Source of the DNA: an uncultured delta proteobacterium
GTDB lineage: Bacteria > Desulfobacterota > WTBG01
Assembly (NCBI GenBank): GCA_963793865.1
Contig: CAWCBP010000014.1
Location: 96,001 to 160,000 of the forward strand
Reading direction: 5' to 3'
Length of the DNA stretch: 64,000 nt
Shown here: positions 50,649-55,487 of the stretch, in pieces
Numbering within the stretch: the stretch's first letter is position 1
How the letters are laid out: the number at the start of each line of letters is the position of its first letter
Notes under the pieces: model-generated
Databases searched by the model: none
The model's input: only the letters and a program-made list of their open reading frames with translations
Told to the model about the DNA's origin: nothing
Made by a program: the position numbers and the translations under genes

Positions 50649-52262
50649 ATGAGACAATCGAGCGCGGCGGAAGTGGAAGAACAGGAAACGGGCCGCGCGC
50701 TGAACAAGAAGAGGCTTGAAACCGCTGAGAGCATGGCGGCCCGCCAGCGGGACATCTCGGTGTCGGAATTTTTCGCCAAGAACCGCCACCTGCTGGGTTT
50801 TGATAATCCGCGCAAAGCGCTTCTCACGGCCATTAAAGAGGCGGTGGATAATTCACTGGATGCCTGCGAGGAAGCGGGCATATTGCCCGATATCCTTGTC
50901 AGCATCGAAGACCTCGGAAATGACCGTTTCCGCATCGCGGTGGAGGACAACGGCCCGGGTATTGTCAAGCGCCAGATTCCCAACATTTTCGGGAAGCTGC
51001 TCTATGGTTCGAAATTCCACTGCCTGAAGATGAGCCGGGGGCAGCAGGGGATCGGGATCAGCGCGGCCGGCATGTACGGGATGCTTACCACCGGCAAGCC
51101 GGTTGAAATCATCAGCCGCACCGATCCGTCAAAGCCCGCGCACCATTTTCTTCTGCAGATTGACACCAAGAAGAACAAGCCTGAAATCATCAGCGATAAA
51201 GAGGTGGAGTGGGAGCTTACGCACGGCACGCGCGTGGCCATCGAGCTGGAAGGCAAGCACACGCGGGGCAGGCAGTCGGTAGACGAGTATGTGCGCCAGA
51301 CCGTCATCGCCAATCCCCACCTCCGGGTTCGGTACCAGGAACCCTCGGGCGAGCTGATTACTTATGAGCGGTCCAGCGATCAGCGTCCCGGACACACCAG
51401 CGAGATTAAACCCCATCCCCATGGCGTTGAGATGGGCGTGCTCCAGACCATGCTTAAGGATACCAGGGCGCGCAACCTGGGAGGTTTTTTGCAGATGGAA
51501 TTTTCCAGGGTTTCGCAGCGGGTGGCGGAGGAAATTTGCGCCAATGCCGCTATTGCACCCTCGCTTTCACCCTCGCGCATGGGGCATCAGGAAGTGGAGA
51601 AACTGATGCAGGGGATTGCCAAAACCAAAATCATGAATCCGCCCACCAACTGTGTAGCCCCCATCGGCGAAGAGCAGTTGCAAAAGGGCCTGGAGTCGAC
51701 CATCCCGGCTGCTTTTTACACCTGTACCACCAGACCTCCGGCGGTGTACCGGGGAAATCCCTTCATCATTGAGGCGGCCCTTGCCTACGGCGGTGACGGC
51801 CAGGAAGCCGACGAGCCGGCCCGGGTGCTCAGGTTTGCCAACCGGGTGCCGTTGCTGTACCAGCAGGGCGGGTGCTGCGCCTACCAGTCGGTGCTGCAGA
51901 CAAACTGGCGACAGTATGGCTTGAACCAGCCTCGCGGTGCGCTTCCCGTGGGACCCCTCACTATTATCGTGCACATGGCCTCGGTCTGGGTCCCTTTCAC
52001 CAGCGAATCCAAGGAAGCCATTGCCGGATACCCGGAGATTGAGGAGCAGATTGTGCTCGCCCTGCAGGAATGCGGCCGCAGGTTAAAGCTGTTCCTTTCC
52101 AAGCGCAGGCGGGAAGCTGAAGCGCAGCGCAAGCTTGACTATCTTGAGATGTATCTTCCCCATATCGGAATCGGCCTGCGCGAACTGCTCAATTTGCCGG
52201 AGAAGGAAGAGAAGCAGCTGACGGATACGCTCAAGGAGCTGCTGGAGCGGCACCGGGGCTGA
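50649..52262 (+). CDS. top6B: DNA topoisomerase VI subunit B
   Basis: [71 protein letters not shown]. Confidence 0.95.
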
Positions 52263-52314
52263 ACTGCCCGGGCAATATACTTATTCAGAGGAAAGCAATC
52301 AGGCAATTCCGGGG

Positions 52315-53532
52315 ATGTACATGAATAAAAAGAGAGTAAGTCAGGGCAAGGAAAAACAAAAACCCGTGGCAGCCGCTAAAGCCATTAAGAGATCATCACC
52401 GCTTGACCTTTCACGTTCACCCGCCATGAAGGGGCTCATAGCGCAGGCACAGGATATACACAAGGATATCAAAAGCGGCCGCCGCCCGTCGCTGCGGGTG
52501 CCCATCCGCAGCCTGTCCAACGTTTCCTTTTCCAAGGATAAGGGCTTCTTCGCCATCGGCAAGAGGGTGAGCAAGCGGACCCTCTCCTACCAGACCATCA
52601 AGCCCTTTGCCCAGACCGTGCGGATGATGGCCTTTGCCAAGCACCTGATCGACACCAGCGACTTTGCTTCCAAACGTGAAGTCTACTACACCTCCAAGGG
52701 ATCAGCCAAGCGTGGCTCGGAAGCGGGTACGGCAGGATGGGGGCCGGCATCGTTTAAAGAGCAGCCGGAATCTGACACCATCATGGATGACATGGAGGCG
52801 ATGATTGGAGTAAACCGGGAGCAGCTCGGCTTTATTCCCGCCGAGCAGAACGGTTCGGTTGCAGGCGAGCTGATTGTTATCGATATCGACCCCGCCACGG
52901 GTAAAAAGATCGAAATTGACTGCACCGCCTTCGGCAGAGGGAGCTATTCCATTCCTTCGCGTGTGGAAGGCCTGGAGTTTCGCACCAAAGCCAAATTTAT
53001 ACTTGCGGTTGAGACCGCGGCGCTTTTCGAGCGCTTAAACGGTCACGCCTACTGGCGGGACGCAAAATGTATCATCGTGGCCATGGGCGGTGTTCCCACC
53101 CGGGCAAACCGGCGGTTTGTCCGGCTGCTGTCCGATTCCTGCAGGCTGCCGGTCTATGTTTTCACCGATGGTGACCCCTATGGTTACGGCAATATTTACC
53201 GCACCATGAAGGTGGGCTCCGGCAATGCGGCTCACATCAATGAGTTCTTCTGCGTGCCCCGGGCAAAGCTGATCGGTGTCACGCCCCAGGACATCGTGGA
53301 TTACAACCTGCCTACCCATCCCCTGGAAGACAAGGATAAGAAGCGCGCCCAGGATGCGATCAAAAATGATCCCTTCTTCAAGAACAACAAACAGTGGGTG
53401 CAGGCATTGCAGGAAATGGTCAAGATGGGCGTGCGCGTCGAGCAGCAGGCATTTGCCGCGCGCGGGCTCAATTACGTCATGGAGACCTACCTTCCCGAGA
53501 AGCTGGGCAATCCCTCCAAGATGCTTCCATAG
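52315..53532 (+). CDS. top6A: DNA topoisomerase VI subunit A (Spo11-like)
   Basis: SKREVYY catalytic Tyr, Q.ESD..MDD.E, TOPRIM AVE...FTDGDPYG, EQQAF. Confidence 0.95.
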   Translation: MYMNKKRVSQGKEKQKPVAAAKAIKRSSPLDLSRSPAMKGLIAQAQDIHKDIKSGRRPSLRVPIRSLSNVSFSKDKGFFAIGKRVSKRTLSYQTIKPFAQTVRMMAFAKHLIDTSDFASKREVYYTSKGSAKRGSEAGTAGWGPASFKEQPESDTIMDDMEAMIGVNREQLGFIPAEQNGSVAGELIVIDIDPATGKKIEIDCTAFGRGSYSIPSRVEGLEFRTKAKFILAVETAALFERLNGHAYWRDAKCIIVAMGGVPTRANRRFVRLLSDSCRLPVYVFTDGDPYGYGNIYRTMKVGSGNAAHINEFFCVPRAKLIGVTPQDIVDYNLPTHPLEDKDKKRAQDAIKNDPFFKNNKQWVQALQEMVKMGVRVEQQAFAARGLNYVMETYLPEKLGNPSKMLP

Positions 53533-53616
53533 GCCTTACTCGAATTCGAGACATGATATTAGAAAAAATTCTGCAGCACTGCAACCCTGGTAGGGACTTA
53601 GGCTAACATTTTTATC

Positions 53617-53644
53617 TTGACATCAACTCAGTTTTTGGTAAATT
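53617..53644 (+). promoter_or_regulatory. Putative sigma70 promoter upstream of the RNA-repeat array
   Basis: TTGACA (53617-22), 16 bp, TG-G-TAAATT. Confidence 0.5.
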
Positions 53645-53704
53645 AAATCTACACTTCAAAGATGAGTTTACTTTGAAGTGCCTATAATTGAATATAATGC
53701 TAAT

Positions 53705-53790
53705 GGGTCTAGAAACTTTCGTTTCTAGAGGTTAAAGCTGTCGATAGTCGGGCCGCTATCTGAAAATTCAGAGGGCGTCCCTTTTCTTTT
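53705..53790 (+). ncRNA. Riboswitch-like structured RNA with terminator, copy 1 of 3
   Basis: GGG, hairpin TCTAGAAAC/GTTTCTAGA, GGTTAAA, GATAG-TCGGGCCG-CTATC, then terminator GGGCCGCTATCTGA/TCAGAGGGCGTCCC + TTTTCTTTT. Confidence 0.75.
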
Positions 53791-53877
53791 GTCCGGAGAG
53801 CGAGAATAAAGGAGGAAATTACGAGTTAATCGCAAATTGTAATAATACATTTTATTAATAATTGAATAGAGTTTCAC

Positions 53878-53964
53878 GGGTCTAGAAGCAATTGTTTCTA
53901 GAGGTTAAATGCTGTTGATAGCCGGGCCGCTATCTGAAAATTCAGAGGGCGTCCCTTTTCTTTT
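53878..53964 (+). ncRNA. Riboswitch-like structured RNA with terminator, copy 2 of 3
   Basis: Same architecture; first stem TCTAGAAGC/GTTTCTAGA keeps pairing through a G-U wobble; different loop (AATT). Confidence 0.75.
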
Positions 53965-54041
53965 GTCCGGACGGGCACAGTGCAGGAGGAAGTAACGGGT
54001 TAATCATAAATTGCGTTGATAAAATTGAAGAGAGTTTCAAC

Positions 54042-54130
54042 GGGTCCAGAAACGGTTGTTTCTGGAGGTTAAATTCTGTTGATAGCCGGGCCGCTATCTG
54101 AAAATTCAGAGGGCGTCCCTTTTCTTTTTT
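54042..54130 (+). ncRNA. Riboswitch-like structured RNA with terminator, copy 3 of 3
   Basis: Same architecture; compensatory T-A to C-G change (TCCAGAAAC/GTTTCTGGA); loop GGTT. Confidence 0.75.
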
Positions 54131-54202
54131 CAGGAGTCAGATTCTGGGGACTTTATTAAGGTGTGTACCTCATGCATCAATTAATTATGAGGAGGAACAA
54201 GG

Positions 54203-54376
54203 ATGAAATCTTTTAAAGAAGTGATCTTAGGTCTTGTAATAGGTGGTGGTTTTATTTTGATCCTCGCTGGTATCGAAGCCTTCAATCTGGGGAACAAGTG
54301 GTATCCTGCATATTTCATAACTGGTGCTATCATTGCGGTGGGATTCCTTAAACTCTCAACAAAAGTTATCAAATAG
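54203..54376 (+). CDS. Small 2-TM membrane protein, 57 aa (absent from ORF track)
   Basis: GAGGAGG SD; MKSFKEVILGLVIGGGFILILAGIEAFNLGNKWYPAYFITGAIIAVGFLKLSTKVIK; paralog of next gene. Confidence 0.85.
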   Translation: MKSFKEVILGLVIGGGFILILAGIEAFNLGNKWYPAYFITGAIIAVGFLKLSTKVIK

Positions 54377-54425
54377 TAACAAGTAGCGAACATCAAACAT
54401 TCATTATTTGAAAGGAGAAACAAAG

Positions 54426-54620
54426 ATGAAGATTTTAAAAGATTGGATGTTAGGTATTTGCATTGGTGGTGGCATTGTATTGATTTTATTGGGTCTGCAA
54501 GCTGTAACCAGGGGAAATAAGTGGTGGCCTGCATATTTTATAGCCGGTGCTATCATTGCCGCAGGATTCATTAAAGTCGCGATCAATGATTATTTAAAGG
54601 AGAAAATAGGAGCACGATAG
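54426..54620 (+). CDS. Small 2-TM membrane protein, 64 aa
   Basis: AAGGAG SD; MKILKDWMLGICIGGGIVLILLGLQAVTRGNKWWPAYFIAGAIIAAGFIKVAINDYLKEKIGAR. Confidence 0.85.
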   Translation: MKILKDWMLGICIGGGIVLILLGLQAVTRGNKWWPAYFIAGAIIAAGFIKVAINDYLKEKIGAR

Positions 54621-54782
54621 ATTTTATCGTTGTTTGCCTATTTGCGGTTCTGTGTGGTATAATATCTCTTCAGCTCTTTACTGAAAGGGCTGTGGGGAGG
54701 CTTTGCCGTCTTGTCAGGAAGGTGACTTATGTGTGCGAGGAAACGGGGGTGCGTGCAGCACTACAATCGTCAGCCGGGAAGA

Positions 54783-55487
54783 ATGATTTTATATTTAATG
54801 ATGGCAGTCATTCTCGTGGTTATTTTTCAGAGCCCGGCAGGCGCCGGGGAAGGGGAGGTATATGACCCCGCGGTGATCGAGGCCTTCTACAGCAAAATCA
54901 TTCGCAATCCTATAGAGATTGATGGCGATCCATACAGGGTTCTGCAGGATGAAGACCTGATTGAGTACCCGGAAGAAGCAGTCTGCGCCATTCAATATGA
55001 AGATGACCGCATTCACTATGAAATTGCTACCTTCGATGACGAGGCCGCCGCTCAAGACAGCGGCTATATAGTGACGCACAAGGGGCATTGCGGTACCTGT
55101 TCCACCCTGCAGGATCTTGCCACCTATCTCTACCACCGGGATCTGACCACGCCGGTGAGGAGGTGCTCCGCGCTGGTGTGGTTCCCCGCCTGGAGCATGC
55201 ATTGCCTGGAGGAGCTGGGGTTCAGTTCGGAATGTGCGGAAACCTGGTATTACAACGCGAAGAATACGGCGCGCGAGTGCCTGTGGCCCTGCCTGGAATC
55301 CTGGATGCATAAAGAGCCCTTTAACAAGCCTGATGGCAGCCTGAACGACTGCCTTGCCTGCGATGAAGAGTGTTCAGGCCCGATTTTCAAGTATGTTGCC
55401 GGCCGCACGCGGCGGAACTCGGGCATCCGCTCTGAAATCGACAGGCCGGAGGACGAGGTGTATCCCATTGTGCATGATTATTATTGA
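54783..55487 (+). CDS. Secreted cysteine-rich hypothetical protein
   Basis: Signal peptide; THKGHCGTCSTLQDLATY...CAETWYYN...CLACDEECSGPIFKYVAGRTRRNSG. Confidence 0.8.
   Translation: MILYLMMAVILVVIFQSPAGAGEGEVYDPAVIEAFYSKIIRNPIEIDGDPYRVLQDEDLIEYPEEAVCAIQYEDDRIHYEIATFDDEAAAQDSGYIVTHKGHCGTCSTLQDLATYLYHRDLTTPVRRCSALVWFPAWSMHCLEELGFSSECAETWYYNAKNTARECLWPCLESWMHKEPFNKPDGSLNDCLACDEECSGPIFKYVAGRTRRNSGIRSEIDRPEDEVYPIVHDYY

What the first reader, a model, noticed from the sequence alone, without database searches (positions are those of the whole stretch)
53705..54130. Triple tandem riboswitch-like RNA array, each unit with its own overlapping terminator
Seen: three ~86-89 nt units start at 53705, 53878 and 54042 (spacing 173 and 164 nt). 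Each reads GGG, a 9-bp hairpin, GGTTAAA, a linker, GATAG-YCGGGCCG-CTATC, TGAAAATTCAGAGGGCGTCCC and a U-tract. Hairpin 1 has variable loops (TTTC/AATT/GGTT), a compensatory T-A to C-G change in copy 3 and a G-U wobble in copy 2. Copy 1 also has a U-G at the second stem. The wobbles only work on the + strand, which points to selection on RNA structure. GGGCCGCTATCTGA pairs with TCAGAGGGCGTCCC ahead of TTTTCTTTT, forming an intrinsic terminator whose 5' arm is the conserved loop and 3' strand of hairpin 2, so the two folds are mutually exclusive. Inference: three complete ON-type transcriptional switches in series would give a very sharp, low-leak response. From memory and unverified, the GGGU..AGG..GUCGGGCCGC pattern resembles the nhaA-I (Li+/monovalent cation) riboswitch motif. 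This may be a variant or a new class, and three complete switches in tandem would be unusual either way.
Basis: partly seen in the sequence, partly recalled or inferred. Interest (0 to 1): 0.92.

Follow-up and report, generated by a model that had tools for sequence, protein, structure and literature searches.

The report
Triple sodium/lithium-type riboswitch array
Three copies of a known alkali-ion-sensing RNA switch, each with its own stop signal, sit in a row ahead of two tiny membrane-protein genes; it is a clear and rare example of a kind already described, not a new class.

Summary
Units at 53705, 53878 and 54042 (+) each pass the gathering score of Rfam nhaA-I (RF03057: 48, 42.6 and 44.7 bits against 37). 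Each is followed by a terminator hairpin built from the conserved P2 loop and the P2 3' strand, then a U-tract.

This is the terminator-bearing nhaA-I variant that White et al. 2022 (PMC9646797) described in Deltaproteobacteria ahead of unknown genes. They named it Na+-II. That paper also reports one triple arrangement with terminators.

The array lies behind a single promoter whose -35 box is conserved in four species. It precedes two paralogous 57/64-aa two-helix membrane proteins of an orphan family.

Triplets occur in 4 of the 17 genomes of the class that carry the motif, and doublets or triplets in 12 of 17.

Two points are new but modest. Unit 1 carries U, and units 2 and 3 carry C, at the position that sets Na+ selectivity in the tested D. 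propionicus switch. A sister species has C in all three units, although a 2022 review lists Na+-II as never seen in tandem.

Verdict: new member of a known kind. This scan has noted the same kind on other DNA.

The parts
53617..53644 (+). Promoter-like site: -35 TTGACA (53617-53622), 16-nt spacer, -10 TAAATT (53639-53644). The implied transcription start is near 53651.
   Evidence: It scores 10 of 12 in the consensus scan. The TCTTGACA box is invariant upstream of the first unit in all four species of the genus. No promoter-like site on the + strand lies in either spacer.
53652..53680 (+). Leader hairpin, a perfect 10-bp stem (53652-53661 with 53671-53680), between the promoter and unit 1.
   Evidence: Fold of the whole leader. 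The closest relative has a hairpin at the same place with a different sequence (read by eye). Its function is unknown.
53705..53761 (+). Unit 1 aptamer (nhaA-I type). P1 runs 53709-53729 and P2 53742-53761. The key nucleotide 53748 is U, giving a U-G closing pair as in Li+-I and the C54U mutant.
   Evidence: Rfam RF03057 48.0 bits, E = 2e-6. Own model 70.5 bits. The position was mapped from the WT and M4 templates in the paper's supplement.
53750..53790 (+). Unit 1 intrinsic terminator: hairpin 53750-53781 and U-tract 53782-53790. It overlaps the P2 loop and the P2 3' strand.
   Evidence: -16.0 kcal/mol. The terminator scan finds its upper part.
53791..53877 (+). Spacer 1. It is homologous to spacer 2 and holds an AGGAGGAA box and an AATTGAATAGAG box just before the next unit.
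   Evidence: Alignment. No aptamer-like match. No promoter-like site.
53878..53935 (+). Unit 2 aptamer. The key nucleotide 53922 is C, giving a C-G closing pair as in the Na+-selective D. propionicus RNA.
   Evidence: Rfam 42.6 bits. Own model 71.6 bits..
53924..53964 (+). Unit 2 terminator: hairpin 53924-53955 and U-tract 53956-53964.
53965..54041 (+). Spacer 2.
54042..54099 (+). Unit 3 aptamer. The key nucleotide 54086 is C. Its P1 stem has the same sequence as that of the tested D. propionicus construct.
   Evidence: Rfam 44.7 bits. Own model 72.4 bits. Compared by eye with the supplement text.
54088..54130 (+). Unit 3 terminator: hairpin 54088-54119 and U-tract 54120-54130.
54203..54376 (+). 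First regulated gene: a 57-aa membrane protein with two hydrophobic segments, preceded by a GAGGAGG ribosome-binding site.
   Evidence: No Pfam or NCBIfam family above cut-off. Only 4 close relatives and 8 cluster representatives.
54426..54620 (+). Second regulated gene: a 64-aa paralogue, 54% identical to the first.
   Evidence: Both paralogues follow the array in all four species of the genus.

Best explanation
One transcript starts near 53651 and must pass three complete ON-type riboswitches of the nhaA-I family before it reaches two tiny membrane-protein genes.

In each unit, the ion-bound aptamer holds the CGGGCC loop and the GCUAUC strand in P2, so the terminator cannot form and RNA polymerase reads on. 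Without ligand, those bases pair with UCAGAGGGCGUCCC and transcription ends at the U-tract.

The three gates multiply. This gives very low basal expression, a higher threshold and a moderately steeper response.

The ligand is most likely Na+ (about 55-60%). Units 2 and 3 carry the C that makes the tested D. propionicus switch Na+-selective. Unit 1 carries the U that, in that RNA, broadened the response to Li+, Na+ and NH4+. A series of gates passes only what all of them accept.

Shown here: family membership, the aptamer/terminator overlap, the conservation of the array and operon in relatives, and the promoter motif.

Inferred: the single transcript, the ligand and the dose-response.
For: Family. 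The three units score above the Rfam gathering score. In 108 distinct relatives, 8 of 8 P1 pairs show changes on both sides and 94.5% of cells are paired, against 38-48% when the partners are slid.

Expression platform. A terminator that uses the P2 loop and 3' strand, followed by a run of 4 or more U, was found by script in 37 of 39 class hits. The other two were read by eye: one was mis-parsed by the script, and one has a weak UUUGUAUU tail. The distal stem covaries between genera (CUGAAAAUUCAG, CUGCCGAUCAGGCAG, CUUGAAGAAAG). The same architecture was shown to activate transcription with Na+ in D. propionicus (PMC9646797 section 8; templates).

Single promoter. The conserved TTGACA lies only upstream of unit 1.

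Maintenance. Triplets occur in three species of the genus and a doublet in the fourth. Position is kept across species: unit 3 here is 94% identical to unit 3 of the sister species, and the first units of the other two species are 89% identical to each other. An independent triplet occurs in another genus (G011).

Operon. The two paralogues follow the array in 4 of 4 species of the genus.

Model of gates in series.
Against: There is no direct RNA evidence. The only runs that hold this DNA are metagenome contigs, which cannot show starts or ends.

The ligand is inferred from one tested relative. 34 of the 39 terminator-type units in this class carry U, not C, so the C is not a general mark of the terminator type. 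The published boundary between Li+-I and Na+-II is loose.

A-T-rich spacers could hide weak promoters that a consensus scan misses. A conserved AATTGAATAGAG-like box precedes every unit and is unexplained.

The regulated proteins have no known function, so the physiology gives no independent pointer to Na+.
Confidence: 0.78

Rival explanations
1. The architecture is the same, but the physiological ligand is Li+ or another monovalent cation such as NH4+ or K+, not Na+.
For: The Rfam family is the Li+-I class. Unit 1 and 34 of 39 units in the class have the U typical of Li+-responsive RNAs. The C54U mutant of the tested RNA answered to Li+, Na+ and NH4+.
Against: Terminator-type variants ahead of unknown genes in Deltaproteobacteria were the set found to be Na+-responsive. 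Units 2 and 3 carry the Na+-selective C. No nhaA-type Li+ exporter is regulated here.
Confidence: 0.2
2. The extra copies are neutral products of recent tandem duplication of a ~170-nt module. The locus behaves like a single switch with redundant terminators, and copy number is not under selection.
For: The spacers are duplicated along with the units. The terminators of the three units are identical. Copy number varies within the genus (2 or 3). Units tend to resemble each other within a genome.
Against: Position-specific identity across species shows that the array predates speciation: 94% for unit 3 between two species and 89% for unit 1 between two others, against 62-82% for other pairs that involve this window's units. 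All three aptamers keep full consensus and compensatory P1 changes. Independent doublets or triplets occur in 12 of 17 motif-bearing genomes of the class.
Confidence: 0.1
3. Each unit is transcribed from its own promoter and released at its terminator as a separate small RNA.
For: An A-T-rich box (AATTGAATAGAG-like) lies 8-12 nt upstream of every unit. Each unit ends in a good terminator.
Against: The same box precedes the first units too, where it lies about 35-45 nt downstream of the conserved promoter, so it is probably transcribed. No promoter-like site is found in either spacer. The family is a validated cis-acting riboswitch.
Confidence: 0.04

Closest known systems
Na+-II riboswitch (terminator-type variant of nhaA-I; the D. 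propionicus 'hypo' representative; White et al. 2022, PMC9646797; sections 8 and 9 and supplement file 1 read)
   Same: The aptamer consensus is the same, and the P1 stem of unit 3 has the same sequence. The terminator is likewise built from the P2 loop and 3' strand. The host is of deltaproteobacterial type and the downstream genes are of unknown function. Units 2 and 3 have the C at the C54 position.
   Different: There are three copies in series instead of one. Unit 1 has U at the key position. The linker between AGGUU and P2 is 4-5 nt longer. A 2022 review lists Na+-II among the classes never found in tandem (PMC9481103, Table 3 passage).
Li+-I riboswitch / nhaA-I motif (Rfam RF03057; Weinberg et al. 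2017, PMC5737381, passages; White et al. 2022)
   Same: Sequence and structure family. ON logic. U-G closing pair in unit 1.
   Different: Typical members are thought to control ribosome access ahead of nhaA antiporter genes. Here the platform is a terminator and the genes are tiny orphan membrane proteins.
The one triple Li+-I arrangement with terminators ahead of nhaD in environmental DNA (White et al. 2022, concluding remarks), counted as '6 doublets and 1 triplet' in Sherlock et al. 2022 (PMC9481103, passage)
   Same: Three complete aptamer-plus-terminator units in one leader.
   Different: The regulated gene differs (nhaD there, 2-TM orphan proteins here). Here the triplet is conserved across species and mixes U- and C-type aptamers. 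I could not see the published sequence, so identity with it cannot be excluded, though the different gene makes that unlikely.
Other pseudo-cooperative triplets, such as the triple c-di-GMP-I riboswitch of Bacillus thuringiensis (Zhou et al. 2016, cited in PMC9481103; seen only in that passage and reference list)
   Same: The series arrangement of complete switches for a more digital output.
   Different: A different aptamer class and ligand.

Membership tests
nhaA-I motif RNA / Li+-I riboswitch (Rfam RF03057) | Covariance-model score at or above the curated gathering score (37 bits) | tested here: met
   48.0, 42.6 and 44.7 bits, with full model coverage 1-55. The same three are the only hits in the whole genome.
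nhaA-I motif RNA / Li+-I riboswitch (Rfam RF03057) | Two hairpins with conserved GGGU, AGGUU and a CGGGCCGC loop, supported by covariation | tested here: met
   Alignments. In 108 distinct relatives, 8 of 8 P1 pairs show changes on both sides. P2 variation was restricted by the exact-match pattern used to collect part of the set.
nhaA-I motif RNA / Li+-I riboswitch (Rfam RF03057) | Usual context: ahead of nhaA-type antiporter genes, with control of the ribosome-binding site | tested here: not met
   The downstream genes are 57- and 64-aa orphan membrane proteins. The platform is a terminator. This places the units in the variant group, not the typical one.
nhaA-I motif RNA / Li+-I riboswitch (Rfam RF03057) | Selective binding of Li+ | not testable with these tools
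   Needs in-line probing or transcription assays.
Na+-II riboswitch (White et al. 2022) | nhaA-I-like aptamer joined to an intrinsic terminator as the expression platform | tested here: met
   Same layout as the published template.
Na+-II riboswitch (White et al. 2022) | C instead of U immediately 5' of the CGGGCC loop (C54 of the D. propionicus construct) | tested here: inconclusive
   Met in units 2 (53922) and 3 (54086). Not met in unit 1 (53748 is U). The position was fixed by comparing the WT and M4 templates.
Na+-II riboswitch (White et al. 2022) | Found in Deltaproteobacteria ahead of genes of unknown function | tested here: met
   The genes have no family. A locus with a near-identical triplet, and many other loci with the motif, carry record titles such as 'uncultured delta proteobacterium' or Thermodesulfobacteriota.
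Na+-II riboswitch (White et al. 2022) | Na+-selective binding and Na+-dependent read-through | not testable with these tools
   Experimental only.
Pseudo-cooperative tandem riboswitch (several complete switches for one ligand) | Two or more complete aptamer-plus-platform units on one strand in one leader | tested here: met
   Three units within 426 nt, all on the + strand and all complete.
Pseudo-cooperative tandem riboswitch (several complete switches for one ligand) | All units lie in one transcript | tested here: inconclusive
   Only one promoter-like site, upstream of unit 1, conserved in 4 species. No usable RNA data.
Pseudo-cooperative tandem riboswitch (several complete switches for one ligand) | Steeper dose-response than a single unit | not testable with these tools
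   Only a model was run: the span narrows from 81-fold to about 32-fold, the leak is cubed and the EC50 rises about 3.9-fold.

The most novel reading that the evidence does not exclude
The array is heterotypic and works as a specificity filter. A broad alkali-cation/NH4+ gate (unit 1, U type) is followed by two Na+-selective gates (C type). The orphan two-helix membrane proteins it controls would then be a new kind of sodium-stress effector, and would give a function to the 'hypothetical' genes that dominate the Na+-II regulon. The locus would also be the first documented tandem Na+-II system.
Probability: 0.15. Interest if true: 0.55.

Novelty: new member of a known kind. Interest (0 to 1): 0.32.

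Why it matters
The locus adds a clean, conserved example of a triple alkali-ion riboswitch. In one uncultured lineage of deltaproteobacterial type, doublets and triplets are the rule (12 of 17 motif-bearing genomes). The literature counted 6 doublets and 1 triplet for Li+-I and none for Na+-II.

The natural U/C difference at the one position known to shift ion selectivity, between units of one array and between sister species, is a ready-made test of that selectivity rule.

The array also points to a tiny orphan family of two-helix membrane proteins as candidates for a role in the response to sodium.

None of this changes the known picture of how these switches work.

Tried and rejected
Ghost aptamers in the spacers. 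The spacers are about as long as the units and begin GUCCGGA...AGGAGG, so I asked whether they are decayed units. My model, run with filters off, gives at best -0.5 bits (E = 5.5) there. Rejected.

Internal promoters. None was found by the consensus scan.

RNA evidence.
- Of 24 runs listed, none holds half of the stretch's words, and 3 are RNA or possibly RNA with shares of 0.05-0.08.
- All four runs laid are contigs.
- One 258-nt contig of a run only guessed to be RNA covers 54068-54325, from unit 3 across its U-tract into the first gene. It cannot be told from DNA, so it is no evidence of read-through.
- The one certain metatranscriptome covers only 55170-55451.

Function of the small proteins.
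- Pfam and NCBIfam give only sub-threshold hits.
- The protein atlas gives nothing at 0.9 or above.
- A word-based search finds 4 proteins.
- A profile search of 1.84 billion representatives finds 8.
- No structure prediction was run.

Na+-I riboswitch (RF03071) in the same genome: none found in a 98.6% complete assembly.

Census by DNA pattern. It is therefore a sample. Two of the 80 loci (L113, L114) were left out because of the 100-source limit.

Literature since 2022 on tandem Na+-II. Searches found nothing beyond the three Breaker-laboratory papers cited.

Full report
**Observation**

The window holds three near-identical modules on the + strand, starting at 53705, 53878 and 54042. Each module has five parts:
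- GGGU;
- a 9-bp P1 hairpin;
- AGGUUAAA and a short linker;
- a P2 hairpin, GAUAG(U/C)-CGGGCC-GCUAUC;
- UGAAAAUUCAGAGGGCGUCCC and a U-tract.

When a unit is folded with its tail, the minimum-energy structure is P1 plus a terminator hairpin (-16.0 kcal/mol). The 5' arm of that hairpin is the GGGCC of the P2 loop plus the P2 3' strand. When the aptamer is folded alone, P2 forms in units 2 and 3. The two folds therefore exclude each other.

The alignment also shows that the ~85-nt spacers are homologous to each other. The repeated module is thus about 165-175 nt, not only the ~88-nt unit.

**Identity**

Rfam cmscan places all three units in nhaA-I (RF03057) over the full model. The scores are 48.0, 42.6 and 44.7 bits against a gathering score of 37. 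These are the only hits in the 3.85-Mb genome. The genome has no match to the Na+-I family RF03071.

A model built from 39 hits in the same class scores the units at 70-72 bits on the + strand. The - strand gives only hairpin fragments of 9.3 bits or less.

That model found 127 matches in 100 loci, of which 108 are distinct sequences. Among these, 8 of 8 P1 pairs change on both sides, and 94.5% of cells are paired against 38-48% when partners are slid. P2 hardly varies in this set, but part of the set was collected with an exact P2 pattern.

**What the literature says**

I read sections 8 and 9 and the supplement text of White et al. 2022 (PMC9646797).
- nhaA-I RNAs are Li+-I riboswitches that mostly appear to control ribosome binding ahead of nhaA.
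- Rare variants carry an intrinsic terminator, occur only in Deltaproteobacteria and precede genes of unknown function.
- The tested variant, from D. propionicus, activates transcription with Na+ (KD about 1.4 mM). These variants were named Na+-II.
- Changing its C54 to the U usual in nhaA-I broadened the response to Li+, Na+ and NH4+.

The WT and M4 templates in the supplement differ only at the base just 5' of the CGGGCC loop. That base is U at 53748 in unit 1, C at 53922 in unit 2 and C at 54086 in unit 3.

The review by Sherlock et al. 2022 (PMC9481103, passages only) counts 6 doublets and 1 triplet for Li+-I. It lists Na+-II among the classes not found in tandem.

Weinberg et al. 2017 (PMC5737381, passages) had already noted nhaA-I RNAs near one another.

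**Context**

Upstream lie topoisomerase VI subunits B and A (50649-53532). The cassette from about 53540 to 54700 has 35-44% G+C, against 52-64% on either side.

The promoter-like site consists of TTGACA at 53617-53622 and TAAATT at 53639-53644. The TCTTGACA box is invariant upstream of the first unit in all four species of the genus. No + strand promoter-like site lies in the spacers.

A perfect 10-bp hairpin at 53652-53680 sits in the leader.

Downstream are two paralogous genes, at 54203-54376 (57 aa) and 54426-54620 (64 aa, 54% identical). Each has two hydrophobic segments.
- They match no Pfam or NCBIfam family above cut-off.
- A word-based search finds 4 proteins.
- A profile search of 1.84 billion representatives finds 8.

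Both paralogues follow the array in all four species of the genus.

**Relatives**

Within the genus, two other species have triplets and one has a doublet.

Position is kept across species. Unit 3 here is 94% identical to unit 3 of the sister species. The first units of the other two species are 89% identical to each other. Other pairs that involve this window's units lie between 62% and 82%. The array is therefore older than these species splits.

In the class, 42 genomes were searched including this one, and 17 have hits.
- 11 of the 17 have successive hits within 250 nt.
- A twelfth (G031) gains a third unit 176 nt from another with my own model.
- Triplets occur in 4 of the 17, in two genera.

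In an even sample of the phylum (151 genomes including this one), 14 have hits and 2 have doublets. The only triplet is this one.

Of the 39 class hits, 37 have a terminator that uses the P2 3' strand plus a run of 4 or more U by script. Of the other two, one was mis-parsed and one has a weak U-tract (read by eye).

At the key position, 34 of the 39 carry U. The 5 with C are units 2 and 3 here and all three units of the sister species. In the wider set the closing pair is U-G in 91 and C-G in 17 of 108 distinct sequences. C-type units stand in arrays only in these two species.

Other arrays and single copies in the class precede tiny one-helix membrane proteins, MscS-type channels and a CitMHS-like transporter fragment. 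This fits the osmotic and cation theme of the literature.

**Mechanism**

The best reading is one leader with three ON gates in series. Read-through to the genes is the product of three ion-dependent anti-termination events.

I ran a simple model of independent gates. Three units compare with one as follows:
- the 10-90% span narrows from 81-fold to about 32-fold (apparent Hill coefficient about 1.26);
- the EC50 rises about 3.9-fold;
- a 10% leak per unit becomes 0.1% overall.

The main gains are tightness and threshold rather than extreme sharpness.

Na+ is the most likely ligand, because of the terminator-type context and the C in units 2 and 3. With a U-type unit first, a series still passes only what all gates accept.

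The single transcript, the ligand and the dose-response are inferred. The RNA data to hand cannot test them.

**Rivals**
- The ligand is Li+ or another cation.
- The extra copies are neutral duplicates.
- Each unit is an independently transcribed small RNA.

The last is the weakest. The A-T-rich box before each unit also precedes the first units, where it lies downstream of the conserved promoter.

**Verdict**

The element belongs to a described class, and its triple, terminator-bearing form has been reported once.

What is added:
- conservation of the triplet;
- its frequency in this lineage;
- the mixed U/C composition, and an all-C triplet in a sister species;
- the link to an orphan membrane-protein family.

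Earlier notes of this scan describe the same kind on other genomes, including a doublet ahead of a 54-residue membrane protein.

Noticed in passing
window 53680-53704, 53855-53877, 54020-54041; also before units in L004, L005, L006: An A-T-rich box (AATTGAATAGAG-like) lies 8-12 nt upstream of the GGGU of every unit in the genus. This includes the first units, where it lies downstream of the conserved promoter. Its role is unknown. It could be part of the RNA unit, a pause site or simply a carried-over flank.
   Followed up: partly
window 53810-53835 and 53985-54010: Both spacers hold AGGAGGAA followed by (A/T)TAACG(A/G)GTTAATC, which resembles the ribosome-binding site and start region of the first gene but has no start codon. 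In related species the same place holds 2- to 8-codon mini-ORFs. This may be a remnant of duplications that included the gene's 5' end.
   Followed up: partly
window 53540-54700: The whole cassette (promoter, three switches and two small genes) has 35-44% G+C, set between flanks of 52-64%. It may have been acquired as a unit.
   Followed up: no
window 54164-54389: A DNA contig of one metagenome run joins 54164 to 54389 and so skips 224 nt. Some related populations therefore carry only one of the two small paralogous genes.
   Followed up: no
window 50649-53532: Genes for topoisomerase VI subunits B and A (Pfam Topo-VIb_trans; TOP6A-Spo11 Toprim) lie in what appears to be a bacterium of deltaproteobacterial type.
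   Followed up: no
window 54729-55487: A 252-aa cysteine-rich protein with an N-terminal hydrophobic segment has no Pfam or NCBIfam match. A promoter-like site at 54634-54663 precedes it. A metatranscriptome contig covers 55170-55451.
   Followed up: no
L022:814-1290(-), L016:1611-2105(+), L025:2784-3065(+): In three other genera the riboswitch arrays precede a shared unnamed protein type. It has an N-terminal membrane helix and then a domain with a G-x-E-I/F-x-R-I-P motif. Its matches to bacterial PH domains are weak and below cut-off.
   Followed up: partly
L025 (G031:C21), units at 613, 789 and 1501: One relative has three units, two of them 176 nt apart and the third 712 nt further on, with near-identical flanks. 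This suggests a duplicated riboswitch-plus-gene module rather than a pure leader array.
   Followed up: no
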